A DNA stretch of 64,000 nt from Eledone cirrhosa (Eukaryota). The first letter of the stretch is position 1. Each line of letters opens with the position of its first letter. A program made the translations under genes and the position numbers. Location of the stretch: assembly GCA_964016885.1 (NCBI GenBank), contig OZ024740.1, forward strand, positions 292,330,001 to 292,394,000, in the 5' to 3' direction. Below, one piece after another: positions 8,406 to 55,936 of the stretch. The notes beneath the pieces were generated by a model, which was not told where the DNA came from, made no database searches, and saw only the letters and a list, made by a program, of their open reading frames with translations.

Positions 8406-8436
8406 AGGAAGTTATAGTTCACTTGAAGCATTGTAT

Positions 8437-8793
8437 AATGAGGTATAAACATTTGAATTTGTAAAGCCAAAACAATGCAGGTATGGACATAGAATAAAAA
8501 ATGCAAATGCGAAAGATATTGTTGACAATTAGTCTTTTACCTTAGATTTATTTAAATGTCCTTAATTTTCGAGATAATATCTCTTCTTCGGAGGGAAGTA
8601 AGCTATTTAGAACACTGGTTTAACCACTTTACTTCCCTCCGAAGAGGAGATATTATCTTGAAAATTAAGGACATTTAAATAAATCTAAGGTAAAAGACTA
8701 ATTCTCAACAATATCTTTTGCATTTTCATTTTTTATTCTATGTCCATACCTGCATTGTTTTGGCTTTACAAATTCAAACGTTTATACCTCATT
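8437..8793. repeat. Fold-back with ~165-bp arms, each carrying a hammerhead-like motif (Penelope-like relic)
   Basis: 8437-8600 is the reverse complement of 8628-8793. Plus arm reads CCT CCGAAGA GGAGAT-ATT-ATCTT GAAA ATTA AGG (8635-8671). Confidence 0.8.
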
Positions 8794-8864
8794 TTAATTG
8801 AAAATTAGAATTGGCGCTCTGAAATAGCGATATATATATGAATGTATCTTTATTGCAAGAATAA

Positions 8865-31269: not shown

Positions 31270-34200
31270 CTCCCAAAACCCCAAGTTGCAGAATCGTCTC
31301 CACACCTTAAGCTTATAAGGGTTTCTATGGAGAGCTATAGTGACCTGAAGAACAAATTTTCGCAGGACGTGGGCAACCCCTGCCAGAAACCCATCAACCG
31401 CGTCCTGTTAAACTGTTTCCCCACCCCACCCAACACCCCCTCCAGCACCCAAATGGAGATTGAACAACCCGATCTCCAGGAAACGAAAAGGTAAGTGCAC
31501 CTTTTCTTCCTTTTTCGCCAACTCTTCTCCACCAATATGGCTAGTTTACGAGTTGGAAGCGTGAATGTGCGTGGCCTAGGGATGCCCTGGAAACAGGGCC
31601 AACTTTTAAACGACCTTAGGTCACACGGTATAGATGTGATAGCCATCACCGAGTCCAGGATCCACAACAGGCAGCAACTAACCCCCATCTTCAGTGACTT
31701 TGAGATCTACGCATCTCTCTGTCAGCCAGTAGGTGGAGGGGGAGTGGCTGTCATGTTTCGGAAAAACCTGGACATTGAAGTACAACAAGTACACTTGGAC
31801 CTGGAGAGTAGACTGGTAGTCCTAGACGTGAACAGTATTGGAGGTGGAGCCTTCAGACTGGTGGCCGTTTATGCCCCGACCGGGCAATCGCAATCGCGGC
31901 CAGACTTCTTTAAGCGTTTAGAGTCTTTTCTGGGAACGTCTCGCTCCTTACTTTTAGTGGGGGACTGGAATGGTATCCTAGATGTACAATGGGACTATGT
32001 GGGAGCATGTCCCAGTAGAGGGGGTGCAACAGCCTCAAAAATCTAATCGGCCAATTCCAACTGGCCGATAGATATCGACTAGATTTCCCGACTGCACCAC
32101 AGTGGACGTGGGCAAACCGCAGCGGGACATCTAGATCGTATTTAGATAGGTTTTTCATTAGAGAGAAGAACAAGAAGATGTTAAGCTGTCCACAAATGCA
32201 CATGGTTGCCTATTCAGACCACAAACTAGTCATCTGCATAGGCAACAGTAATAGAATACATAGACAAGGACCCGGATACTGGAAGCTGAACGTGTCGCTA
32301 CCGACACGTAAAGCCTACAGTGAACGGTTAAGTAGATTAGTTAAGCAACAATTAACGGGAACCATCGTCAACAACAGATGGTGGTACTCCCTCAAGAAAG
32401 CAATTAGAGTAGAGTCGATAGACTTTAGCAGAGAGTTAGCCTTAGAGAGAAACGGAACTAGTAGCCAAGGTAGAGGAGGCGCTTAGGAGTGGAAACGTAG
32501 CTAGAGTGCTAGCAACGAGAACGGCATTGGACCAGGTCTTTGACGCAAAACACGTGCTCTAGGAAACGAGGGAGCAAAAGCTGTTAGCTGGGCCCGAGTG
32601 GCAGAGGCGAAAAGTGGCAACAAGTCCACGATTCGGTCTTTGAAAGACCCAAACGGACGCGTGTTACTTGACCCCAAGCGGATGTGCGCGGCCTTTCAGC
32701 GGCACTTTGCGCAACTGTTCGGGCAGAGTGGCGGTGCGTCGAACGAGGCAATGGACTTCGGTTTATACCTCGACGGCCTGCCGCGTCTCTCGAACATGGA
32801 CGCCGAGTTCTGCGAAAGACCGATCACAGCCACTGAGATGCGGGACGCTCTGGGCCGCTGCGGGAAACGCAAATCACCCGGTCTAGATGGTCTACTCTAT
32901 GAGTTTTACATAGGCATGCCGGACTTGTTCTCTGGCGTCCTCGAGGCCGTCTACTGCAACTGGCAGCAGAACGGGAGAATTCCCAGTTCTGCAGGCAGGG
33001 CGTAGAAACGCTGATCAGGAAAGACGAGAACAAAGGGGACGAACTAAGCAACTTTAGGCCCATAACTCTGCTCAACACAGAGTTAAAGATTTTGGCCAAG
33101 GTGTTGGCAACGAGGTTGGCGCTTGTCGTCAAGAACCTGGCAGGGAAAGCGCAAACGTGTGCAATCCCGACCAGGTCCATACACGACAACCTCCACCTCA
33201 TGCGATACATCATAGAGAGGGTGGGGTGTAAACCCGACTTTGGTGGGGCTCTGATCAATTTAGATCAGTCTAAGGCGTTCGATAGGGTCGACCATCGATA
33301 CTTGGAAGCTGTTCTCAAGGCGGCCAGTTTCGGACCTATCTTCAGAGGCTGGATCGCTGCAATGCACACCAACATCTGCTCGATGGTCAAGGTGAACGGC
33401 TACCTATCCGAGCCGTTCGCAATCACGCGTTCCATCAGACAGGGATGCCCTCTCTCCTCCATTATGTACGTACTAACTCTAGAGCCACTATTGCGGAAGC
33501 TGGAGCTGCTGCAGGGCATTCTGTTGGAACCGGGACTGCGGAAAGCGGCGTCGGCTTATGGCGACGACGTAACGGTAATAGTGTCGGAAGCCTCCGAAAT
33601 CGGGGCGATCGGCAAATTACTGCAGGAATATGAAAGGCTCACAGGAGCAAAACTGAATCCGGACAAGTCTGTCGGTTTGCAACTCGGAACGTGGAGAGGC
33701 AAACCGATGCTGTCCGATAGCGTCGATGCCGTCGATGCCGTCCGATTGCTTGGGGTCTGGTTCGGTCCAGACCTCCAGGTGGAGAAAAACTAGAACGAGG
33801 TCACTGCCAATGTATTTGCGCTCACCCGGAAGTGGGCAGAGTGCAAACTATCCTTGAAAGGTCGAGCGGAAGTGGCGAACACTTTCATAGCGTCCGTCAT
33901 CTTCTACCGCTTGACCGTCGTGCCTTGTCCCCGTGAACACCTCACCAAGATGGAACGCATGCTCTTCCAGTTCCTTTGGAAGAAGCAGGCTCCACTGGTG
34001 AGGAGATCCGTCTGTTGTCAGCACCCTTCCAACGGAGGGCTGGGAATGCCGTGGCTGATGATGAGCAAGCATGCGCCGAGGCTACGGCATCTCCAGGTAT
34101 TCCTCACCGACCAACCGGTGTGGGAACCGTTTGTGAGACAGGCCTTCCTGCAACTTGTCTCGCTGACGGAGCTGCAGTCCTGGGTCAAGCGGAGACCGAA

Positions 34201-35410
34201 GAAGATGGGCGCCTGGCACATTGAATGCGCTCAGACACTCACAGTCCTCTGTCAAGCGGGCACGGCAATCAGTAGAGACTCCACTTCGACATTCTATAGA
34301 GGGTTAGTACGTCACAAGGGCGACGACGTGCTCGGGGAGATTCTAGGCGTCGAAGACAACGGACTCACCAGTCTGTGTGATAGGACTTTCCGCCCGGGAC
34401 CTATGAACAACCTCCAGAGGTCCCTGGCCTAGCAGTGCTACCGAGGAGCTCTACCAGTTCGTGACAAGATCTACAGGCATGGACGCGCCGACAGGGATCC
34501 TTCCAAGAGGACGTGTCCAAGATGCGCGCAGGACACTGAAACCGTCCTGCGCGCAATTGTACACTGCCCGGGCGTAACCGACCTGTAGAACTACGTAGAA
34601 CAACTGCTGTCGCGTATGGGACAAATCCAGTTGACTGCCGAGTCCATAGTAAGGATCAAACCGCCAACTTCTTTCAAAAACGAAAGAGAGGCGGTTTTCC
34701 TCTGTATAGTGGCTATGGTGAAAGAGGTTATATGGTGGACGAGATTGAGAGGACTGAGGACAGAAGCCTTTCTCTCCGGACAACTCATTTCCTTCTTTAG
34801 ATACCACTTTAGAAGGAGAATCAGAGTGGAGAGAGAGGCACTGCACCCCAGTAAATTTACTGAAAGGCGGGTGAATGTGGCAAAAATGGCCCGAGTGATT
34901 GGGCCTTCTCTGTATATAAACCTGTAGGTTGAAGAAGAGAGCAAAAGGAAGAAAGGAGCACTTGCACGACATGCTCCTGGAGTTGAGGGTTGTTCTATCG
35001 ACGGGATATTAAACAACCCATTTGTGGCGCCTCCCCCCTATTGGGGATTTCGATTGTTATAATTGTTTGTTTCATATTTTTTTACACGATTGTATGTAAA
35101 ATCCCCGGCATGTGTTTGTTTTGTCCCCTTTTCTTGTGGCTAATAAAGAAATATATCTATCTATCTATCTATCTATCTAATCTTTTTTTTTCGGGGGTAT
35201 GTGTTACCCATATAAACTGTCTCCCTCTATTGGGGAAAATCGACTAACTTTTTAAATTCCATTTGTGATAACATTTTACACGTTTTTATTGTATGTAAAC
35301 TTCCCCCTTTGTATTTGTCCCCTTCTTTTGTGCCCCTGTGGCTAATAAAGAAATATATCTAATCTATCTATCTAATCTATCTATCTATCTATCTGTCTGT
35401 CTATTTATCT
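31270..35410 (+). mobile_element. Tx1/L1-clade LINE: complete but disrupted ORF2, end of ORF1 and duplicated 3' tail
   Basis: ATG at 31537: MASLRVGSVNVRGL, AVYAP, VGDWN, YSDHK, GPGYWKLN, KSPGLDG, LDQSKAFDRVDH, IRQGCPLS, AYGDDV, CPRC zinc knuckle, end at 34927. GGCTAATAAAGAAA(TATC)n tails at ~35140 and ~35340. Confidence 0.93.
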
Positions 35411-38391: not shown

Positions 38392-39662
38392 AACTAGCAT
38401 TAAAGCCCGGCGTTGCTCGGGGTCATTAAGTTACCAAAGTTAAGTTGCACCACCCATTTTATGGCAGCACTTTTTTGTCTGCCAGGCACTGGGTGAATGA
38501 ATTACAGACCTGGAAGCATGAGCTGCGCCAGCAGTGACAATTGTAGTTTCGCCTATGGATATTATCTCTGTGCAAAAAAGTGTTGAAATTTATTGTTTCA
38601 CAGTACTTGCGCAACACGCGCGTAGACGATGCCAGCCGAACAACAGAGCTGCGATGGAGTTGTTCTGCATGGTTGTCTGTGTGTTTTCTAAATTTAAGAC
38701 AGTAGGGAGGGTTGTGATATGTGGGAGAGTTAGCTGTTGTTTCTAGCAGGTTTAGTGACCTCATAGAGGATATGTTTTCTAAATTTAAGACAGTAGGGAG
38801 TGGTGTGATATGGGGGAGAGTTAGCTGCTGTTTCTAGCAGGTTTAGTGACCTCATAGAAGATATGTTTTCTAAATTTAAGACAGTAGGGAGGGGTGTGAT
38901 ATGGGGGAGAGTTAGCTGCTGTTTCTAGCAGGTTTAGTAACCTCATAGAGGATATGTGTTTTCTAAATTTAAGACAGTAGGGAGTGGTGTGATATGGGGG
39001 AGAGTTAGCTGCTGTTTCTAGCAGGTTTAGTGACCTCATAGAAGATATTATTGTTTATCATTATCTATAAAAGGCAGATTGTTGTTGTTGTTGAAGCGAG
39101 TGTGTGTTTGTATGCGTTTGGAAAAGAGGTTTTAAAAAAGATTTATCGCTTGTTGTTGAATAAATGTATCTGTTGCTTTTGCATAATTGTCGTTTCGTAT
39201 GAAATGTAATAATTGTTTCTACTTTTTTGGCACAAGGCCAGCAATTACCCAGTACATTACTGGTACTTTATGTAATAATAAACGTTCTCTATCTCTCTTC
39301 CTCTCACTCTCTTCTCTCTCTCTCTTCGGCAATCACGCACGTTGTCAGATGATATGAGAGAGTAAAACGGACAATATCACCATCAAGCTTGGAAAGAGAA
39401 AGTAGCAGAAAGTATGAAGTTGTATAGATTTTGAATGGTAGTAGAAAGAGTTCAGCAGTTTAAATGAGAGAGAAAAATCGTAAAATATTGAGTTTTATCT
39501 ATTTTTTGCGTAATTGTGGGTGAAATTGAAAAAATTAGATGTGCCAAGACGCAATCGATGCTATTTCGAATACTGAATTGTAAATTTCAATTGAAGAAAT
39601 TCTATATCGTAGATTTCTATAAGAAAGGAGCATGACCACACACTGAGCTTTATAGATTATGA
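38392..39662 (+). mobile_element. Helentron/DINE-like non-autonomous element (HINE-like)
   Basis: Starts AACTAGCATTAAAGCCCGGCGTTGCTCGGG (subterminal hairpin), ends GCTTTATAGATTATGAT, and carries an internal tandem array. Confidence 0.5.
38682..39046. repeat. Four near-identical 91-bp tandem units
   Basis: Units start at 38682, 38773, 38864 and 38957 (TGTTTTCTAAATTTAAGACAGTAGGGAG...CCTCATAGA). Confidence 0.95.
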
Positions 39663-40019: not shown

Positions 40020-40990
<971 letters not shown>

Positions 40991-44873: not shown

Positions 44874-46247
44874 TTATATTCTGCACAACACAGCCGCGAG
44901 ACAGACCTCGTAACACAATTGAATGCTTCGAACAGCGCGCCGCCTGTAACTCTAATTACACACCTAACTAACATATATTTGATATATACATAGTTTATTC
45001 TGTAAGATTTTTGACACAGGTGCTATGTTATCGGCGAATCTAAAGTGTTTGAGAAATTTGCTATCGATTGTAATACTTATTTCGTCTTCATCCCAGTGAG
45101 GTTTTGAAAACTTCTAGGCAGGTTGTAAAACGTATTGGCGGGCTAAAATCTCTTTACGTTACACCATATTAGAGCGAAAATTAGCCCGATGAAGTCGCAG
45201 TGTGATGTGTTTTTTGCCTTTCATCCTTTCGAAGTCGATAAAAAAGTGTCAGTCTAGTACTGGGGTCGATTCTTCCTCTGTATATCTTTCTCACTTCCAT
45301 TGTCTCACTCTCTCTATCCTTCTATGAAAGAAATCTGCTATATTCAGACCTGGTGAGGAGATGGGATCCGCTAGGTTTAGAAATGCCCAAGAAATGCCAT
45401 TTGTCAACACGGGGCCTCTACAACTCCCTCAGAAGTTACAGGACCATACATGCATGTATGTGTATGCTGGTGTAACATCTTGGTTTGTTATAGTTGTTAT
45501 CACTAATAGTATTTTTACAGCGTCAAATGATTTTTAGTAGTACACAAATGCTAAGCAGAATGGGATGTTATAGTTTATTGATATTTCGATTAATTAGTTT
45601 AAGTATTGAGGTTCCTTCAATAAACATATTTATAGGTACCATTTTTTAAATTTCAAGAATTACCTCCATCTCTCTCGCCCTCCCCATCTCTCTGTATGGT
45701 GAGAAAATGGGGTCCCACGTGCTGGCTTCCCCACAGCCCCGGCGGACAGAATGGAGAAGGCGTTTACCCGGAGGATGGTAAGGGAGATGCGATGGAAGAG
45801 CCATTCCATCTCGTTTAAGTATTATACCTGGAGAAAACAAAAAAAAAAACAAGAACAACAATAAAAAAACACTTGAAATACATTTGTTTGGCAGTTCTGT
45901 TTATTAGCATTTGCGAAAAGCTGGCAATATGTCTCTTAGAAAGGTTTTTACTTCGTTGTTACTTAAACTTTCAATGTCGTTACTTATCGCTACATTGTTA
46001 CTGAGCAACAATGTGTTTGTTGCTCAGTTAGTTGCAGTGTTATTTCAGTTTGGAAATAATCAATTGGATTCCTAATTGTTTGTTCTTGGGATAAAATAAT
46101 TTCTCTCTTTTGGATTTTCTTTTTTTAACATGTCTCGTACGAACCTATGACTAAGTTATTTGTATTGTTGAAAGTTTCGTAGTTTGGACTTTTCAAGATT
46201 CATTTTTCGTATTTCTTCTTCTAAAATTGGCATTGAAAAATGTTCTG

Positions 46248-46545
46248 GGCGATATCCAATTTTAGGGGCTTATTTGCTGCTGATGCTGCTTACGTGCTGT
46301 AGTTGCTGCTTACTTGGTGGCTTACTGCTGTTGCTAGCTACTGCTGACTTGCTGCTATTGTTGCTTAACTTGTGCTACTTACCTGCTTCACTGTATGAGG
46401 CTATTCCAACAAATTTACATTCCCTTTTTTTTTTAGCCGTTAAAAGAAATATAGATTTATTTATTTGCAACGTTTTTGTTAGTTTCTTGGTTTTGTTTTT
46501 TTTTGCGATTTATTTGCCACTGGGGCATAGATTTCTTTATTTGGC

Positions 46546-46580
<35 letters not shown>

Positions 46581-46690
46581 GATTTATTTGCCACTGGGGC
46601 ATAGATTTCTTTATTTGGCCAGGTTTTTTTTTTTTTTTTTTTTTTTTTTGCGATTTATTTGCCACTGGGGCATAGATTTCTTTATTTGGC

Positions 46691-46722
<32 letters not shown>

Positions 46723-46763
46723 GCGATTTATTTGCCACTGGGGCATAGATTTCTTTATTTGGC

Positions 46764-46798
<35 letters not shown>

Positions 46799-46837
46799 GA
46801 TTTATTTGCCACTGGGGCATAGATTTCTTTATTTGGC

Positions 46838-46868
<31 letters not shown>

Positions 46869-47032
46869 GCGATTTATTTGCCACTGGGGCATAGATTTCT
46901 TTATTTGGCCAGGTTTTTTTTTTTTTTTTTGCGATTTATTTGCCACTGGGGCATAGATTTCTTTATTTGGCCAGGTTTTTTTTTTTTTTTTGCGATTTAT
47001 TTGCCACTGGGGCATAGATTTCTTTATTTGGC

Positions 47033-47070
<38 letters not shown>

Positions 47071-47339
47071 GATTTATTTGCCACTGGGGCATAGATTTCT
47101 TTATTTGCCAGGTTTTTGTTTGTTTGTTTGTGGCAAATAAAGAAATCTATGCCCCAGTGGCAAATAAATCGCAAAAACAAAACAAAACCAAGAAACTAAC
47201 AAAAACGTTGCAAATAAATAAATCTATATTTCTTTTAACGGCTAAAAAAAAGGGAATGTAAATTTGTTGGAATAGCCTCATACAGTGAAGCACGTAAGCA
47301 GCATCAGCAGCAAATAAGCCCGTAAAATTGGATATCGCC
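46248..47339. mobile_element. Fold-back DNA transposon (Merlin-like termini), copy 1
   Basis: Termini GGCGATATCCAATTTT / AAAATTGGATATCGCC, perfect TSD ATGTTCTG (46240-46247, 47340-47347), arms of ~200 bp. Confidence 0.88.
46505..47112. repeat. Nine ~45-bp units separated by variable poly(T)
   Basis: GCGATTTATTTGCCACTGGGGCATAGATTTCTTTATTTGGCCAGG(T)n at ~46505, 46579, 46650, 46723, 46797, 46869, 46931, 46992 and 47069. Confidence 0.95.
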
Positions 47340-48799
47340 ATGTTCTGAAGTATGAAATTCCTGGCCCTTGAGTCACAGACGTCGCTTCATGGCTATAATA
47401 AAGTATGTGTCCATATATGTGAACACAAAATAGTTAAGGAGTTCGCTTCGCGATCATGAAGGCCCTGGTTCTATTCCTCAATACGAAAAATTGAGTGTTA
47501 CCCTAGTCTCGGGTCGACCGAAGCCTTGTAAGTGAAACTGTGTGGAAGCCTGTCGGACGGACTGTACCTGTAATTCAAACGGTCAGCCATGTTACACATG
47601 CCCCTTGTCACACTGAATCTCTTGGGAATGTACGTTAAGATTACATGTGTCGTGGAATGCTAAGCCACCTACAAGTTAATTTCATGAGCTGATTGTTTCG
47701 TTGATCGAACAACTGGAAACCGATGGAGGTCCATTCCATCCATGCCCTCCCCCCTCTACACTCACCCTTACTCACCTCACACAGATATCCCCACCCCACA
47801 CACACCCCATCGCTCCTCACACTCACACATGCCCCTTTCCCACCTCACACACACACACACTCTCTCTCTCACACACACACACTCTCTCTCTCTCACACAC
47901 ATACCTCCCACACACACTCACATACTATATATAAATGTTGACCGTTCTTTTGTTAATGGTTTATTACTATTTTGTGGTTATTTCATTGTTTTGTTCTTTG
48001 ACACTGAATTCTATTTTAGTAGCGTGTTGGGTGTTGGTTTGGATTATTATGATTAAGGTTGGGCGGTGGATTGGCAGTATCGATAGAGGGTGGGACGCCA
48101 TGCTTTGCAGCACAGAGTTACGGCGCTTTATGATCTGAGTTCAAATCCCGCCGAGGTTAACTTTGTCTTTCATCCTTACTGGGTCGATAAAATAAAGTAC
48201 CAGTCACGCACTGGGGTCGATTTAATCGACTTTCCCCTCTCCCCAAATTGCTGGCATTATTATGATTGAGGTTGTCCAAAGTTTTGATGAGATGAACTAT
48301 TTTTGGTTTATGATTGTGGTTAATATATTTTAATGATGCCTCATGGCGCACGCTTTCTGGTGTGTTCACAATTATTTTGTTAAATGTATGTACTGCACCG
48401 ATACTATGGGCATGTGGTTAGAATGTCCCAGGAAAGAATCACTGGACAGATTTTACGGGCGAAACCAACAGGTAGGAGACTCAGGGGTAAACCCCGAGCA
48501 AGATGGTTGGAAAACATCCATGAGCTTGGCTGGTCATGCTTGGGGATCCAGTCGGATCAATTGGAGATGGTTGCTTCAGACAGGAGCTGTAGGAGGGAGT
48601 GTTTGAGGACTCTTCCCCCACGACCTCCTCTGAAGTAAGTGGACGACGAAAAGAAGTAGTATGTACTACACTGTCTATGTAGGTGATTGTCGGAGCAGTA
48701 ATTATTTTAGCATGCCATTCACCTCTGCTTGTGTCGTTCTAAATTTAATTGTGTAGTAAGTTTATATTTTATATCAAATACTATATGCACTTACATGGT

Positions 48800-48991
48800 A
48801 AATCATCATCATCATCGTTTAACGTCGATCTTCCACGCTAGCATAGGTTAGACGGTTTTGTCGCACTTGAGGCGAGATTGGTCGGGAGATCGTGTCTCGC
48901 TTGTACAGAACTGTTTCTGGCTGGATGCCCTTCCTAACACCAACCACATTTACAGTGTGAACTGGGAGCCTTTTTACCGTGTCTTTTACAC
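48800..48991 (-). mobile_element. RTE 3' UTR/tail fragment, continuing at 52667-52735 after the hAT
   Basis: (CAT)n tail and GGCTGGATGCCCTTCCTAACACCAACC, as in 10690-10712. Confidence 0.75.
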
Positions 48992-50059
48992 CAGTGGTCG
49001 CCAACATGGGTTCCGCAAAACAAACTCCGGGTTCCTTAAAATATAAATATTTACATTACCATTAATATTTTAGGTTTTCTGAAAAAGGTGCAAAGAAAAT
49101 GCCAAAGGTGCAATGTATAAATGAACAAGTACTATTGTAGTGTACATAGGTTCTCCACTCCAATTCGTGGAAAACACTACTTTCAATTTCTCACTTGAAT
49201 TAGCAGAAAAACACTGTTCTGAGATTCGTGGAAATTGAATACTTTCAATTTCACATCAATTCTTGGAAAGACATAGTTTTCTGAATTCCGAGAATTTGAC
49301 TACTACTGATAATACACTAATTGAACTTAGAAATTGACCAATCACGAACAAGTAAATGTTGGTCGATGACAGCATAACTTTAAACTGAAAACTTCAGTTC
49401 AGCGAGGTCTCTCAGCCCAGAAGCAGGGTCAGTTCGCTGTTCTCACAACGTAAGTTCAGTAGAATGTTTTCAATAGAGAACACGTTTTAATCTGCTGCCC
49501 TCACAAAAGCTTTAAAGTCGTCTAAAGTTTCCTCACTGAGTGAACTCGCTTACTAGTCGTTTTCAACATGCATCCAGTTCCACAGACAATTCTAAATAAG
49601 AACACGTTACATTCTGTTGTACTTTGCACAGAAAATATAACGCCTGTAAAGGTAATTTTGTATTCCATGCATACACTATAAACTTTGCCACACAATTATG
49701 TATTCATTTGATGAAATATATTTACATTACCAATAATATATAATACGACCCTAAAGTAGTATATGCAGGAAGTGCTGGACTCTGAAAAAAATTTCTTCTA
49801 GTTGTTCATAAATTTGCACCTTTTTCAGTAACCCCTAATATTTTAATATTATTATAAGACTTTAAATAATATGTTTGCCATCCTAAAATGGAGAAATTTC
49901 AATTTTTAAAAATTAAAATTTTTTTTTAACTAGTTAAGTTTTTCCAAATATCTAAAATTAAAGTTAATTTAAGAACTTTTTGTAATTAAAAAAACTGTTA
50001 ATTTCTCTTGTTTATTAATGACATATTAAAAATGTTAACTGTAGATAAATAACATTGAT

Positions 50060-52546
50060 ATGATGTCTACTGCAAAGAAGCTGAAGTTAGATATCAGCAG
50101 TAAGGTTAGACAGTGGTGTGATGATTATGTTAGATATAGATTTCAAAAAGCTGACACTAAAAAAGATACACCAGATCAGCCCATGTGTTTGCTATGTTCA
50201 AAAGTTCTATCAAATAGCTGTTTAAATCCTGCTAAACTTAAAAGACACCTTGATACTAATCACACCAATGATAAAAACAAGTCACTGGAATACTTTACTT
50301 CGCTGAAAAACAACATAAAAAAATCACAAGCTAATATGTATGACTTGTTTTGTAAAAAGTCAGATAGAAATAAAGCTTTAACAAGAACATCTTTTGAGAT
50401 TTCACATTTGATTGGTAAAAACAAGAAACCATTTACATTAGAACAGTTAATTCTGCCAAGTATAAAAATTGCTACAAAGAATCTTTTTGAAAGCTGCAGT
50501 ATTAAGGACAAAGAAAAATTAAGCCAGTTACCATTGTCAGCAAATACCGTAAAAAGAGGGATAATTGATATTTCTTCTGATATAGAAAATCAGATACTAA
50601 CTGCACTAAAGAAAAGCCCATGTTTTGGACTGGAAGTGGACGAAACTACGGATATTAATAACAAGGCTCAATTAATTTGCTATGTACGGTTTGTAGACCT
50701 TGATAAAAAAGAATTAGTAGAAGAGTATTTGTTTTGGGCGATATCCAATTTTAGCGGCCTAAATGCCGCTTACTTGCTGTAGTTGCTGCTTACTTCAATG
50801 TATGAGGCTATTCCAACAAATTTACATTGCCCTTTTTTTAGCAAATGGTCCTCTTCTTCCGATACCACTTCGAAAGAAGGATCAAGGTGGAGAAAAAGGC
50901 ACTCAGTCCCAGCCAATTCCATGAAAGATGGGTGAAAGTAGCAATAATGGCCCGTGTAAGTGGGCCATCTCTCTATATCGGCTTGTACAGGTAAGAGAAG
51001 AAGGGAGCACCCCCTCTCTCTGTGCTCCCTGGCAGAAAGGTCGCACACTTTCTACGGGGGTGTGTGTGACCCCAAAAGGCTAATAAATCGCAAAAAAACA
51101 AACCAACCAACAAACAAACAAAAAAGGGGCAAATAAAGAAATTTATGCCCCAGTGGCAAATAAATCGCAAAAAAAAAAACAATAAATAAATCTATATTTC
51201 TTTTAACGGCTAAAAAAAGGGGAATGTAAATTTGTTGGAATAGCCTCATACATTGAAGTAAGCAGCAACTACATCAAGTAAGCGGCATTTAGGCCGCTAA
51301 AATTGGATATCGCCTTGTTTTGTCTGGCATTAGACATCACAACTAAAGGTCAAGATATATTCAATAAAATTGAAAAGTATTTTTTAAAAAATGGTGTATC
51401 TTGGAGCAAGTTGACTTCAATAACAACAGATGGAGCAGCTGCAATGACTGGTAAAAATTCTGGTTTGATTGCAAAAATTAAAGAACAGACCCCAAATTGT
51501 ATTTCAAATAATTGTATGATTCATCGAGAGGTTTTGTGTTAAAAAAAATTCAAAGACAGAGATGCTCAAATATTAAATGACCAGCTGAAAGACATTGTCA
51601 AAATTATCAATTTGATCCATGCAAGAGCAAAAAATTCTAGAATGTTTGAATCTATTTGTGAATCTTCTGGAAGTAATTATAATAGATTGTTATTGAACAA
51701 TGATGTGCGTTGGCTGTCAATTGGGGATGCTATGAAGAGAGTTTTTGAACTGAGAGAAGAAATAATAGTTTTTCTAAAAAAACAGAATGATGAAAGAGCA
51801 AGTGTATTAGAAACCAATGAATGGAATGTGCAACTCGCTTATTTAGTAGACATTTTTGGTGAACTGAACAAACTAAATAAGTGTCTTCAGGGTAACAATG
51901 CAGATATTTTTACTTCAATCAATTTTATTACATATTTTCAATCAAAATTAAACATCTTTATAAAAAGAATTGAATCGGACAATTACTTTCAAACCTTGAA
52001 ATAGAGCTTAAGAAGAGAGAAAATTTTGACTCCAGCAATCTAAAGAAGATTATTCTTTCTCATTTAAATGTGCTTTCCACAGGTTTTTCAGATTATTTTG
52101 ATGGAAAAAGATATTGTTAGCGGAAATTTATGGATAAAAAACCCGTTCACCGAGATCGAGCAGTTAGTGTCAGAAAATGACGCTGGAAATTGTAAAAATT
52201 TACTACCTGCTTACATCAGTTGATGGATTTGAATTCAAACGAAGACCTGAAAGTGATATTCGAAAGCAGAAAGAAAGAACTATGGATCGACTTATTCTTG
52301 ATTGGGGAGTTTAATGAAATCAGCCAACTTGCATTGAAGTATTTGACTTTATTCCCATCTAGCTATTTGTGCGAAAAAGGGTTTTCGCAGTTGGTGGAAA
52401 TCTGCACAAAGAAGAGGAATAAACTGTCAGCAATTGACGAGTGTATGAAACTGGCATTAACTAGTGTTGAACCTCGATTTTCTAAACTCACTGATGAGGC
52501 GCAGCAGCAGAAAAGCCATTGTGTTCGATTACATACACACGCATGA
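50060..52546 (+). pseudogene. hAT transposase (BED finger, DDE core, dimerisation domain), disrupted by insertion, stops and frameshifts
   Basis: PMCLLCSKVL...LKRHLDTNH, LEVDETTD, ITTDGAAAMTG, CMIHRE, VRWLS, SSYLCEKGFS. Removing 50737-51322 restores EEYLFCLALD. Confidence 0.92.
50737..51314. mobile_element. Fold-back transposon copy 2, carrying a Tx1 3' fragment
   Basis: Same termini, ~100-bp near-perfect TIRs, perfect TSD TTGTTTTG (50729-50736, 51315-51322). Interior encodes FRYHFERRIKVEKKALSPSQFHERWVKVAIMARVSGPSLYIGL. Confidence 0.92.
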
Positions 52547-53199
52547 AACACTAAAATAAATAAATACTTTATTATTTTTTTTGAAAAGTTTTGTATTGTA
52601 TAGGTTCCGTGAAGAATTCAAAATATTTAGAGGGTTTCTCGGTTTTAGAAAGGTTGGCGACCACTGTCTTACACGACCACTTTACAGTGTAGACTGTGTG
52701 CTTTTTGTCGTGTCACCTACACGACCACTTTACAGTGGTAAATGATATTCAAAATACTTAAAACACTCATAAAATGTTAAGAAAAACCATTACAAATGCT
52801 TCTCAGATTCAAAGAATATCAATCACTGGATCATGGCGGCTGTCTGAAAGATTTGTGCAATTGAAGATAAAAATAAGAAAAACTTTTTTTGCAGGTATCG
52901 GTTACGTGTTAGCGCCTTGGCAGTATCGGTAGAAGGTAGAACGCCATACTTTGCAGCATAGAGTTACGGCCTTTTACAGTCTGAGTTCAAATCCCGCCGA
53001 GGTTAAATTTGCTTTTCGTCCTTACGGCGTCGATAAAATAAAGCACCAGTATTGCACTAGGATAATTGATGCCCTTGTGCCAAAAATAGAAACAATTATT
53101 AAAGGTAGTTTCTTCGGTGCACAGTGTTTTAATCCCTTAGCTGATGTCTTTGGATATGTATATTTGATGACGCTAGATTGGTTGCTAAATTGCGATGAA

Positions 53200-53900
53200 A
53201 AATAATATTGGATGCTATCTGGCTTGGGTAATGCCCACGCTAATTAATAACATAAATGCCGCTGCGGGGCGGTTGTTGACAAGTTCGGCTTGCACCCTCT
53301 GTCTTTTCACCAGAGCGCAAGCCGGTTCCCCCGATACGCCGCTCTCAACGACATATTGAGAAGCCTGGACTCAGTTTGCTTTCCATCCCAACTGGAGCCA
53401 GCAGGCCTAGACCGCGGAGATCTCAAGTACCCTTACCGAATCACCCTCTTCGCCTCCAACTTAGTTGCTTCGGCCACAAACGCTGGCATCGCGGCCCGCT
53501 TCGCAGAAAAACGTAAAATAAACAAATACCGGGGTTTGTCCTGACGCTTCCTCTTCGCACCGGTGCCGTCGAGACCTCAGGCGCACTTGGACACCGTACT
53601 GCTAAGTTCCTCCGCAATATCGGAGCGTCGGTGGCCCGTATGAGGAGGGAGCCCCGCGAGGTTGGGTGGCTGTTGCAGTGGGTGTCACTAGCCATCGTCC
53701 GGGGGAATGTTTTTGCCGTCTTGTCCGCGGGGCGCAGCACTCCCGCCCCCTTTCCCGAGGCCCAAAGCCCAACCCCTCCCCCTTTTGCGACACCAGAGCT
53801 CTTGCCATCCCCTTCCTTTCTCTCTTTTTCCCCCTCTGTATTTCCCTATTCTTTCTTTCCTTTTGTTTCTCTTTTTTATTTTTTCTTACTAAATAAGGTT
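53200..53900 (+). mobile_element. CRE-like 3' part (zinc finger plus RLE region)
   Basis: CRCGAVVDKFGLHPLS, LEPAGLDRGD, AEKRKINKYRGLS, EVGWLLQWVSLAIVRGN. An inverted relative lies at 59040-59520. Confidence 0.8.
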
Positions 53901-54341
53901 TGTTTTTCCACGAGATGTTAATAAACAAATTAATTAATTCGTTTGAAAAAAAAAGGCACTATTAGCTGTCAGAAGTGAAAGTAGGAGAAGGTGACGTCAT
54001 TCGTCAACCTTCTCAATCGTAAACCATCGTTTATTTCCGTATCATCACGCGTTATTTCTAGCGCAGCCATTTATGATTTTCTAAGAGATACGTTTACGAT
54101 GAGATACACTTAATAAAAAATAAAGCATATCGATGTAAGTGGAGTTAACTTAAAGGAAAATAAAGGTGGCCCTTAAAAGGGCCAAATTAGAAAACAAATT
54201 TAAGTTAATTAGAAAACAAGTCATGGTTATCAAATTAGAAAAAAAATTTAAGTTTATAAAAAAATATATGGTTATCAAATTTTTTGAAAAAAATGTTTAG
54301 AAAACAAATTTTTTTCACCAACCTTATACAAAAGCATGGAT

Positions 54342-54430
54342 AAAGTTTATTTATTTACACGTGGTGGTGGTGAGTACATAGACAATCCCCACCAATCAGC
54401 ACCACCACCACGTGTAAATAAATAAACTTT
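54342..54430. repeat. Perfect 31-bp hairpin with 27-nt loop
   Basis: AAAGTTTATTTATTTACACGTGGTGGTGGTG (54342-54372) and its reverse complement (54400-54430). Confidence 0.9.
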
Positions 54431-54577
54431 GATTTTCACTTTGGGATAATACACGCATTTGCAAGTTGAAAAATATGAATTCTACAATATACCCCAGCGT
54501 AAATGGAATTAACCCTGGCGATATTTCCATCGCTACCACTACTACAGCAGATACCATTAATTGGTTGAAAAATCATG

Positions 54578-55936
54578 GGCGATATCCAATTTTAGCGGCC
54601 TAAATGCCGCTTACTTGATGTAGTTGCTGCTTACTTCAATGTATGAGGCTATTCCAACAAATTTACATTCCCCTTTTTTTAGCCGTTATAAGAAATATAG
54701 ATTTATTTATTGTTTTTTTTTTTGCGATTTATTTGCCACTGGGGCATAGATTTCTTTATTTGCCCCTTTTTTGTTTGTTTGTTGGTTGGTTTGTTTTTTT
54801 GCGATTTATTAGCCTTTTGGGGTCACACACACACCCGTAGAAAGTGTGCGACCTTTCTGCCAGGGAGTACAGAGAGAGGGGGGGTGCTCCCTTCTTCTCT
54901 TACCTGTACAAGCCGATATAGAGAGATGGCCCACTTACACAGGCCATTATTTCTACTTTCACCCATCTTTCATGGAATTGGCTGGGACTGAGTGCCTTTT
55001 TCTCCACCTTGATCCTTCTTTCGAAGTGGTATCGAAAGAAGAGGACCATTTGTTGGCCGGCGACATATCCCCACAGTTTCCTCGTTGCAAACGCATCTGG
55101 GACATTTCTTTTCCAAGGGGTTTCCGTCCCGGAATCCGTGTCTGTAGAGCCTTTCCCGAACGGGCAGGGCCCCTCGGTATAATAGTAAGTATTAGTGGTT
55201 GTAATAAAAATGCAATCAAAATGTAATAAATACCTTCACTGATTTCTTTCCTTATATTATCAACAGAAGTTGGTATGTCACCCAAAGTTCGCTTTGTATG
55301 TTCCAGAATAGCAGTGAATTTTGATAAAAATGTTTCTAATTCCTTCTCCACAGTAAGACAAATATACATGTGTAGTCCAAAAAGATATAAATCTTTAAAA
55401 AAATTATAATAATTCTTTATTATTATTATTATTTTCTTTTTCTGTAAATAATTATTTTTCTATATATCTCAAACCCTGCCAAACACCACATCTGTCCATC
55501 TGTAAATTTAAATGACTGTTCTTTCATACTTATCCTCTTCAACTACACATGGATATTTGTCTTACTGTGGAGAAGGAATTAGAAACAGTTTTATCAAAAT
55601 TCACTGCTATTCGGGAACATACAAAGCGAACTTTGGGTGACATACCAATAATGGCCCGTGTAAGTGGGCCATCTCTCTATATCGGCTTGTACAGGTAAGA
55701 GAAGAAGGGAGCACCCCCTCTCTCTGTGCTCCCTGGCAGAAAGGTCGCACACTTTCTACGGGGGTGTGTGTGACCCCAAAAGGCTAATAAATCGCAAAAA
55801 AGGGGCAAATAAAGAAATCTATGCCCCAGTGGCAAATAAATAGCAAAAAAAAAAACAATAAATAAATCTATATTTCTTTTAACGGCTAAAAAAAGGGGAA
55901 TGTAAATTTGTTGGAATAGCCTCATACATTGAAGTA
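54578..55936. mobile_element. Fold-back transposon copy 3, right end truncated, with nested inverted cargo
   Basis: Intact left terminus GGCGATATCC at 54578. ~54634-54948 is inverted with ~55649-55936, and 55269-55376 is inverted with 55542-55648. Confidence 0.85.

What the first reader, a model, noticed from the sequence alone, without database searches (positions are those of the whole stretch)
46248..55936. Young fold-back transposon family (GGCGATATCC ends, 8-bp TSD) that has captured a Tx1 LINE 3' end
Seen: three copies (46248-47339, 50737-51314, 54578-55936) share termini and long arms but have different interiors. Two have perfect 8-bp TSDs, and one splits a hAT transposase. Copies 2 and 3 carry sequence encoding RYHFERRIKVEKKALSPSQFHERWVKVAIMARVSGPSLYIGL, homologous to the end of the Tx1 ORF2 at 34790-34927 (RYHFRRRIRVEREALHPSKFTERRVNVAKMARVIGPSLYINL). 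The inner arm motif GCCCCAGTGGCAAATAAA / AATAAAGAAATCTAT resembles that LINE's tail GCCCCTGTGGCTAATAAAGAAATATAT. Known: GG termini with 8-9-bp TSDs fit Merlin/IS1016, and cargo capture is best described for Pack-MULE, CACTA and Helitron. Inference: a Pack-type Merlin-like DNA element carrying a LINE 3' recognition region. It might move by two routes or make anti-LINE hairpin RNA.
Basis: partly seen in the sequence, partly recalled or inferred. Interest (0 to 1): 0.75.

Follow-up and report, generated by a model that had tools for sequence, protein, structure and literature searches.

The report
Merlin transposon carrying exon and LINE
These three mirror-armed repeats are shortened copies of a cut-and-paste jumping-DNA family (Merlin type, likely over 200 copies) that carries the first coding exon of the host gene RMND5 and the tail of a retrotransposon; it likely picked both up once, likely keeps re-copying one arm onto the other, and shows no sign of moving by a second, RNA-based route.

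Summary
The three copies belong to a Merlin (IS1595-type) family: 444 exact termini in the genome, 72 fetched copies with 8-bp TSDs, and transposase-bearing relatives. The interiors are not separate captures. Arms reach 1.9 kb, up to a whole palindrome with two transposase genes. Both ends carry the same variant in 59 of 61 copies (21.9 expected), which points to arm-to-arm copying. A second, retro route is not supported: 0 of 88 arms stop at the LINE tail. An anti-LINE hairpin is weak: 0-6 of 395 21-mers match free LINE copies. Contigs of one run fit the exon being spliced onto a hAT transposase in a LINE-less derivative elsewhere. Precedents are Turmoil-1, multicopy Pack-TIRs and Galileo TIR extension. 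This scan has already reported the family from other pieces of this genome.

The parts
46248..47339 (.). Copy 1: non-autonomous Merlin derivative of an older terminal type, with no RMND5 or LINE ORF sequence; TSD ATGTTCTG at 46240-46247 and 47340-47347
46451..47129 (-). Tandem array (9.5 units, consensus period 74 bp, poly-T length variable) of the subterminal unit that holds the Tx1 tail motif
48992..52666 (+). hAT element interrupted by copy 2 (TIRs at both ends, 8-bp TSD with one mismatch; broken transposase with weak zf-BED and DUF4371 hits below cut-off)
50737..51314 (+). Copy 2: 578-bp deletion derivative with a 106-bp left arm; TSD TTGTTTTG at 50729-50736 and 51315-51322
50849..51081 (+). 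Tx1 ORF2 end and start of 3' UTR in copy 2 (tail motif at 51147-51164)
53955..54577 (+). Left part of a different Merlin family (GGCACTA-type end) into which copy 3 likely inserted; its remainder is missing
   Evidence: 76-97% matches to L115-L117 running up to 54578
54578..55936 (.). Copy 3: member of the 1.7-kb fold-back subfamily with an internal deletion, right terminus lost
54811..55182 (-). Tx1-derived arm segment (part of the zf-RVT region, family-wide internal deletion, ORF2 end, 3' UTR)
55234..55369 (-). Captured RMND5 first coding exon (136 bp, ATG to GT donor), followed by intron flank down to about 55179
55374..55648 (+). Mirror copy: RMND5 upstream flank and the first ~100 bp of the exon (ATG at 55549), cut by a deletion into the LINE segment
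55634..55840 (+). Second Tx1 ORF2-end/3' UTR segment and tail motif in the right arm of copy 3
31495..35370 (+). Free, broken Tx1-like LINE (endonuclease and RT domains); a 70-76% relative of the cargo, not the closest subfamily

Best explanation
The three copies are non-autonomous members of a Merlin (IS1595-type) DNA transposon family with 8-bp target duplications, whose fuller relatives carry a host RMND5 exon-1 piece and a 5'-truncated Tx1 LINE behind the transposase; both cargoes were likely acquired once, and the long arms likely arise by repeated copying of one end onto the other. SHOWN: (1) family identity, TSDs and copy number; (2) the ancestral order of left end, promoter region, transposase, RMND5 piece, LINE piece, subterminal repeats and right end (L110); (3) all three window copies are subsets or mirror duplications of that order; (4) subfamily-specific variants sit on both arms. 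INFERRED: (a) RMND5 was copied from genomic DNA by template switching, because non-exonic flanks on both sides are included; (b) the LINE then inserted once, soon after, at the border between the RMND5 piece and the A-rich subterminal repeats (about 55%; co-capture as one block about 35%); (c) breaks in the element are repaired from the opposite arm, which extends the inverted repeats up to a full head-to-head palindrome, and deletions across the centre give the varied interiors; (d) each new structure was spread in trans by a transposase that is now broken in every copy examined; (e) both cargoes are neutral passengers in the window copies.
For: PF12762 (46 bits, cut-off 27) in L033, which has the same termini and an 8-bp TSD. 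72 distinct copies have 8-bp TSDs: 60 perfect, 12 with one mismatch. The host RMND5 match is 343/396 with flanks on both sides of the exon; the gene is identified by its next exon (PDB RMND5A, E 1e-12) and by CTLH exons. Element-element divergence is 1.3% and element-host 7.4% over 20 pieces. The sister Merlin family (L112, L114; about 61% amino-acid identity) shows no DNA match beyond position 1537 of L110, so it lacks both cargoes. Both ends have the same terminal variant in 59 of 61 copies, against a shuffled mean of 21.9 and a maximum of 35, and lineage-specific deletions lie on both arms. L101 is a 3828-bp palindrome with two transposase genes and a direct TSD. Changes at codon positions 1+2 are similar in the exon (6 of about 91) and the LINE piece (13 of 191 conserved sites). 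A LINE-less derivative ends its RMND5 piece within 1-2 bases of the LINE junction.
Against: No intact transposase was found: the longest of 16 starts is open for 283 aa, so the mobilising copy is not shown. 57 of 201 ends had no TSD partner, partly because loci were cut short, and 18 listed end pairs lack an 8-bp TSD. The order of the two acquisitions is unresolved. The LINE-less derivative shares the derived RMND5 changes, which needs later homogenisation if it is the pre-LINE state. No LINE TSD is visible. Arm-to-arm copying is inferred from sequence patterns only. 3 of 72 copies sit inside other copies of the family, so recombination between copies also shapes the structures.
Confidence: 0.8

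Rival explanations
1. Co-capture: the truncated LINE already sat in RMND5 intron 1 on a haplotype since lost, and exon plus LINE were copied into the Merlin as one block, with the switch back occurring at the tail-like subterminal repeat.
For: The LINE abuts the intron piece with no Merlin sequence between them, and no RMND5 intron resumes after the tail. The neutral ages of the two cargoes are similar. The LINE tail resembles the subterminal repeat.
Against: The present host intron has no Tx1 piece in the 10 kb examined. A LINE-less derivative passes from the same RMND5 endpoint straight into the subterminal repeats.
Confidence: 0.35
2. One reading: the LINE 3' end lets Tx1 reverse transcriptase mobilise element RNA, so the family also spreads as a retroposon.
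For: The natural LINE 3' end with AATAAA is kept; the tail region is present in 60 of 72 copies and a LINE-derived piece in 36 of 40 terminus-picked copies.
Against: Of 88 distinct arms carrying the element-specific LINE junction, 79 run on to the terminus and 9 break off at scattered places, none at the tail. The arms came from about half of the 179 genome matches. Retention may only reflect closeness to the terminus.
Confidence: 0.05
3. The family is kept or tolerated because read-through hairpin RNA silences Tx1 LINEs or tunes RMND5.
For: Copy 3 is predicted to fold into long helices (-798 kcal/mol, no shuffle control). 20 of 116 host-exon 21-mers are matched exactly by a young copy.
Against: Only 0-6 of 395 arm 21-mers match each of 21 free LINE copies (18 have none), and none matches the window's Tx1. 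All six exon changes alter the protein and the exon is often deleted, as expected for a passenger. No small-RNA data were examined.
Confidence: 0.1
4. All long-armed copies descend from a single head-to-head palindrome by deletion only, with no continuing arm-to-arm copying.
For: One whole palindrome exists (L101), and many junction types could be deletions across a centre.
Against: Different subfamilies carry different deletions and terminal variants, each on both of their arms; one symmetrising event cannot give this.
Confidence: 0.07

Closest known systems
Merlin superfamily / IS1595 family (as summarised in PMC8101967; passages read; Feschotte 2004 not read)
   Same: DDE_Tnp_IS1595 transposase of about 320-330 aa in relatives, 5'-GG ends, 8-bp TSD.
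   Different: TIRs are given as 24-462 bp, whereas arms here exceed 462 bp in 16 of 72 copies and reach 1914 bp. Host exon and LINE cargo lie inside the arms, and one copy has two divergent transposase genes.
Turmoil-1 of C. elegans (PMC2572040; abstract and passages read; lead from an earlier scan note)
   Same: An animal DNA transposon with a host start-codon exon plus intron sequence, and a second captured piece, on both sides of its inverted repeats.
   Different: Turmoil-1 is a Harbinger with one full copy and eight fragments. Here it is a Merlin, the second cargo is a LINE, and there are dozens of exon-bearing copies.
Multicopy animal Pack-TIRs, incl. Ssk-FB4 (PMC8277862; passages and section 7 read, supplements searched for 'Merlin')
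   Same: Non-TE genomic DNA between TIRs, an identifiable parent locus, distinct TSDs, and capture by template switching followed by transposition (proposed there).
   Different: Only 4 multicopy cases were reported in reference genomes, with a few copies each in the examples read. 'Merlin' does not occur in the main text and occurs once in the supplements held, as a column head. Here the cargo rides in transposase-bearing copies and in both arms.
Galileo (P superfamily) TIR extension in Drosophila mojavensis (PMC3573991; passages read)
   Same: TIR length varies widely through tandem-repeat expansion and recruitment of internal sequence, proposed to come from repair on the opposite TIR.
   Different: Galileo TIRs reach about 1260 bp and the longest are in copies without a transposase. 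Here the arms take in captured cargo and up to the whole transposase gene.
Tx1L inside Tx1D of Xenopus (one passage in PMC4494074; the original papers were not read)
   Same: A Tx1-clade LINE residing in a DNA transposon.
   Different: Tx1L targets Tx1D specifically. Here there is one truncated ancestral insertion, and none of the 20 free-copy tails located runs into this Merlin.

Membership tests
Merlin superfamily | DDE_Tnp_IS1595 transposase between the family's termini | tested here: met
   PF12762 46.3 bits in L033; not present in the three window copies, which are derivatives
Merlin superfamily | Conserved D, D, E blocks | tested here: met
   QIDES at 167, HTDRW at 229, HIEGLW at 268 in L033; assignment of the catalytic residues is recalled, not aligned to a structure
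Merlin superfamily | Terminal 5'-GG | tested here: met
Merlin superfamily | 8- or 9-bp TSD | tested here: met
   72 copies, 60 perfect; empty site in sister hAT copies
Merlin superfamily | TIR length 24-462 bp (descriptive range) | tested here: inconclusive
   Asymmetric transposase copies have short arms (25-63 bp by single alignment); 16 of 72 exceed 462 bp
Merlin superfamily | No N-terminal Zn_Tnp_IS1595 domain | tested here: inconclusive
   No hit in L033; weak hit below cut-off in sister L112 (E 0.04); cysteine pairs are present near residues 55-83
Merlin superfamily | Transposition by the encoded enzyme | not testable with these tools
   No intact copy among 16 starts
Multicopy Pack-TIR | Non-TE host sequence with an identified parent locus between TIRs | tested here: met
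   RMND5 piece, 87% with gaps, on contig C5
Multicopy Pack-TIR | Several copies with distinct TSDs | tested here: met
   Exon in 28 of 72 TSD-flanked copies; 11 of 40 among copies picked by terminus alone
Foldback-type element | Long, internally repetitive, length-variable inverted arms | tested here: met
LINE-dependent retroposon (SINE-like) | Copies end at the LINE-derived tail, with 5' truncation and variable TSD | tested here: not met
   0 of 88 arms
Tx1D/Tx1L-type targeted composite | Repeated, site-specific LINE insertion into the DNA transposon | tested here: not met
   One shared 5' junction in the 4 copies that keep it; none of 20 free tails located lies in this Merlin

The most novel reading that the evidence does not exclude
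The captured cassette is a working, portable expression module passed between three transposon classes. The Tx1 tail gives the Merlin transposase message its poly(A) end, and a palindromic derivative supplies a Merlin promoter plus the host RMND5 exon as the spliced first exon (a 31-codon upstream frame) on which an intact-ORF hAT family depends for making its transposase.
Probability: 0.25. Interest if true: 0.72.

Novelty: new variant of a known kind. Interest (0 to 1): 0.5.

Why it matters
Multicopy gene capture by DNA transposons is rarely documented in animals, and I found no description of it for Merlin in the searches made. This family preserves the whole series in one genome: an asymmetric founder, growing arms, a full palindrome with two transposase genes, and deletion subfamilies. 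That makes the proposed repair-from-the-other-arm route to foldback elements testable by phylogeny and by assay. Dozens of hairpin-ready copies of a conserved E3-ligase exon, and its likely reuse as a first exon by an unrelated hAT, give concrete cases for small-RNA and splicing tests. The specific ideas in the finding (retro route, anti-LINE RNA) add little.

Tried and rejected
No RNA holder was listed for the cargo region. A direct DNA search for the RMND5 parent returned only element copies; the gene was found through PF10607 instead. The translated exon alone gave no Pfam hit and only E 0.084 to RMND5A. A search for a Tx1 piece beside the host exon was negative in 10 kb. A search for a near-identical donor LINE found at best 91%, but only 40 of 2672 candidates were scored. 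Shared outer flanks among 201 ends: none, so the main family is not carried by a larger element in the loci held. A systematic microhomology reading of the fold junctions was inconclusive, because gaps against the older reference dominate. An assembly fold-back artefact was rejected: palindromes have direct TSDs and arms differ by 1-9%. MULE and hAT identity were rejected on the transposase. The protein database search gave only unnamed or uncharacterised PF12762 proteins, the best at 60% over 62% of the length. Literature searches found no description of a Pack-type or foldback Merlin or of RMND5 capture; most of these hits were seen as listings only. Repbase and Dfam could not be searched, so the family may already have a library name. 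No structure or complex was predicted.
Full report
Check of the observation. The termini, the two perfect 8-bp TSDs, the split hAT frame and the LINE-like peptide are all in the sequence as stated. Copy 3 lacks its last ~55 bp. Contigs of sister hAT copies cross the copy-2 site without the 578 bp and one 8-mer in 3 of 4 runs, which confirms the TSD from an empty site. The genome is 3.0 Gb. That it is octopus-like rests on my recall of its SINE and on earlier scan notes, not on a call.

The family. The 17-mer terminus has 214 + 230 exact matches and the reversed control has 0, so there are likely about 220 or more copies. Among fetched loci, 201 distinct ends gave 109 candidate pairs, 72 of them with an 8-bp TSD (60 perfect, 12 with one mismatch). 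57 ends stayed unpaired, partly because loci were cut short, and 18 listed pairs had no 8-bp TSD; two of these look like 9-bp TSDs with mismatches. Forty of the 72 were picked by terminus alone. The other 32 came from transposase, exon or junction searches and are biased towards cargo. L033 carries a PF12762 transposase between these termini with the three acidic blocks. By the features summarised in PMC8101967 (passages read) this is a Merlin. None of 16 transposase starts in 17 loci is intact; the longest is open for 283 aa, against 321-341 aa open frames in other Merlin families here.

L110 (2894 bp) is asymmetric: short left end, promoter region, transposase, ~380 bp matching the host RMND5 locus, ~670 bp of 5'-truncated Tx1, subterminal repeats and the right end. 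The host match is 343/396 and covers the 136-bp first coding exon plus flanks on both sides, so capture was from DNA. The gene is RMND5 by its next exon (E 1e-12 to PDB RMND5A) and CTLH exons. Element pieces differ from each other by 1.3% and from the host by 7.4% (20 pieces), which fits one capture followed by later spread. The sister Merlin family has neither cargo. Among the 40 terminus-picked copies, 36 hold LINE sequence (20 in both arms), 11 the exon (6 in both arms) and 3 a transposase piece. In the window, copy 3 is a 1.7-kb-subfamily member with the exon on the minus strand and part of it again on the plus strand. Copy 2 is a deeper deletion, and copy 1 is an older terminal type whose interior is a 9.5-unit array of the tail unit.

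The LINE piece. It groups with 4 of 21 free Tx1 copies on a long branch (0.124). At sites conserved in free copies it differs at 13 of 191 first and second codon positions and 13 of 85 third positions in the 5' block, and 7 of 79 and 5 of 29 in the 3' block. This fits a neutral passenger about as old as the exon, whose 6 changes all lie at positions 1-2. The 21 copies are the best of 40 scored from 2672 candidates, so a closer donor may be unsampled. The host intron has no such LINE now. A LINE-less derivative ends its RMND5 piece within 1-2 bases of the LINE junction and goes straight into A-rich subterminal repeats, which I read as the likely empty state. Against this, it shares the derived RMND5 changes, which needs later homogenisation. 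I put sequential insertion at about 55% and co-capture at about 35%. That L1-clade endonucleases favour A/T-rich sites is recalled, not tested.

How the arms grow. Arm length by single alignment runs from about 20 bp to 1914 bp (median 196; over 462 bp in 16 of 72; interrupted arms are underestimated). L033's arms include the end of the transposase gene, and L101 is a 3828-bp palindrome with two divergent transposase genes and a direct TSD. Both ends carry the same terminal variant in 59 of 61 classifiable copies (11 dropped), against a shuffled mean of 21.9 and a maximum of 35 in 5000 shuffles. Subfamily-specific deletions appear on both arms. The inference is repeated copying of one arm from the other during repair, as proposed for Galileo (PMC3573991, passages), followed by deletions and spread of each new structure. 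Two other Merlin families here also show arms that take in the transposase 3' end; three of those loci were chosen because they showed paired hits, so this gives no frequency.

Retro route: of 88 distinct arms with the element-specific LINE junction, 79 reach a terminus and 9 stop at scattered points, none at the tail; the genome has 179 junction matches. Anti-LINE hairpin: copy 3 folds into long helices (no shuffle control), but only 0-6 of 395 arm 21-mers match each of 21 free copies, while 20 of 116 host-exon 21-mers match a young element. If hairpin RNA is made, RMND5 is the better-matched target. This is untested.

The exon passed on to a hAT. Run X2 (kind not on record) has two contigs that leave L110 exactly at the exon donor. 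Assuming the printed consensus breaks ties alphabetically (my inference), it is compatible with host exon 2 at the predicted acceptor; 0.46% of all positions pass that test. After seeing earlier scan notes that claim a splice to another transposon, I searched the genome with the pattern implied for the second contig. It gave 7 matches, all the same sequence bar one base (control 1). All 7 follow an AG and lie 11 nt before a DUF4371 hAT ORF, and in most of them a palindromic, LINE-less derivative of this Merlin ends about 120 bp upstream. The derivative has 39 exact termini, and the 30 of them examined share one insertion site, so it spread inside the hAT. Six of 7 copies keep a 91-bp exon whose spliced frame ends after 31 codons, and 2 of 7 have an 883-aa ORF. 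This is independent but indirect support for splicing. It rests on one run, contigs only and no strand, and it shows nothing about function.

Comparison and verdict. Turmoil-1 (PMC2572040, abstract and passages) already shows host exons in both inverted repeats of an animal DNA transposon. Tan et al. (PMC8277862, passages, section 7, supplements searched) define multicopy Pack-TIRs, and Tx1L in Tx1D (one passage) is a LINE inside a DNA transposon. A recent octopus repeat annotation lists Merlin only as a table row (PMC13282606, passages). Searches found no Pack-type or foldback Merlin; Repbase and Dfam were not available, and supplements of the other papers were not examined. The family is a true Merlin and a true multicopy Pack-TIR. 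It is unusual in copy number, arm length and the likely hand-over of the exon, but it is built from known processes. Verdict: new variant of a known kind, interest 0.5.

Noticed in passing
window 53955-54577: Left part of a second Merlin family (GGCACTA-type end); relatives L115-L117 are 2.8-3.3-kb long-armed or palindromic elements. Copy 3 likely inserted into it, and both right ends were then lost.
   Followed up: partly
window 50843-51314 and 54578-55052: Copies 2 and 3 share two variants found in no other held locus, though they differ at 7 of 474 bases. On C1, 18 of 49 neighbour gaps are under 500 kb against 2.7 expected (some from segmental duplication). This suggests local hopping.
   Followed up: partly
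L256-L262 (e.g. L256:1935-6374): A 4.4-kb hAT family with an 883-aa DUF4371 transposase ORF in 2 of 7 copies; it carries the LINE-less Merlin/RMND5 palindrome about 80 bp inside its left end.
   Followed up: yes
L142:1337-1472 (host RMND5 exon 1): Six amino-acid-changing and zero silent differences between element and host over 29 silent sites; about 2-4 silent ones would be expected. Chance, or faster mutation in the element lineage; unexplained.
   Followed up: partly
72 target sites: Weak palindromic target preference, roughly (C/A)AAWWTT(G/T).
   Followed up: no
L037, L034, L035, L039: Copies inserted into other copies of the same family, including a triple nest in L037.
   Followed up: partly
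L031, L034, L036, L043: Later insertions inside family copies: a 3-kb insert with a helicase-like frame (Helitron-like), inserts with Penelope-like C-terminal frames and a LINE fragment; the labels are recalled from the translations, not tested.
   Followed up: no
L158, L159, L164, L165 downstream of the tail: The Tx1 subfamily closest to the cargo is followed by a similar TC-rich repeat in these four copies, a possible target preference or longer 3' end.
   Followed up: no
window 8434-8796, 40135-40841: Other long inverted repeats (181 bp at 93%; nested arms among TA runs) and a 4 x 91-93-bp tandem array at 38679-39048.
   Followed up: no
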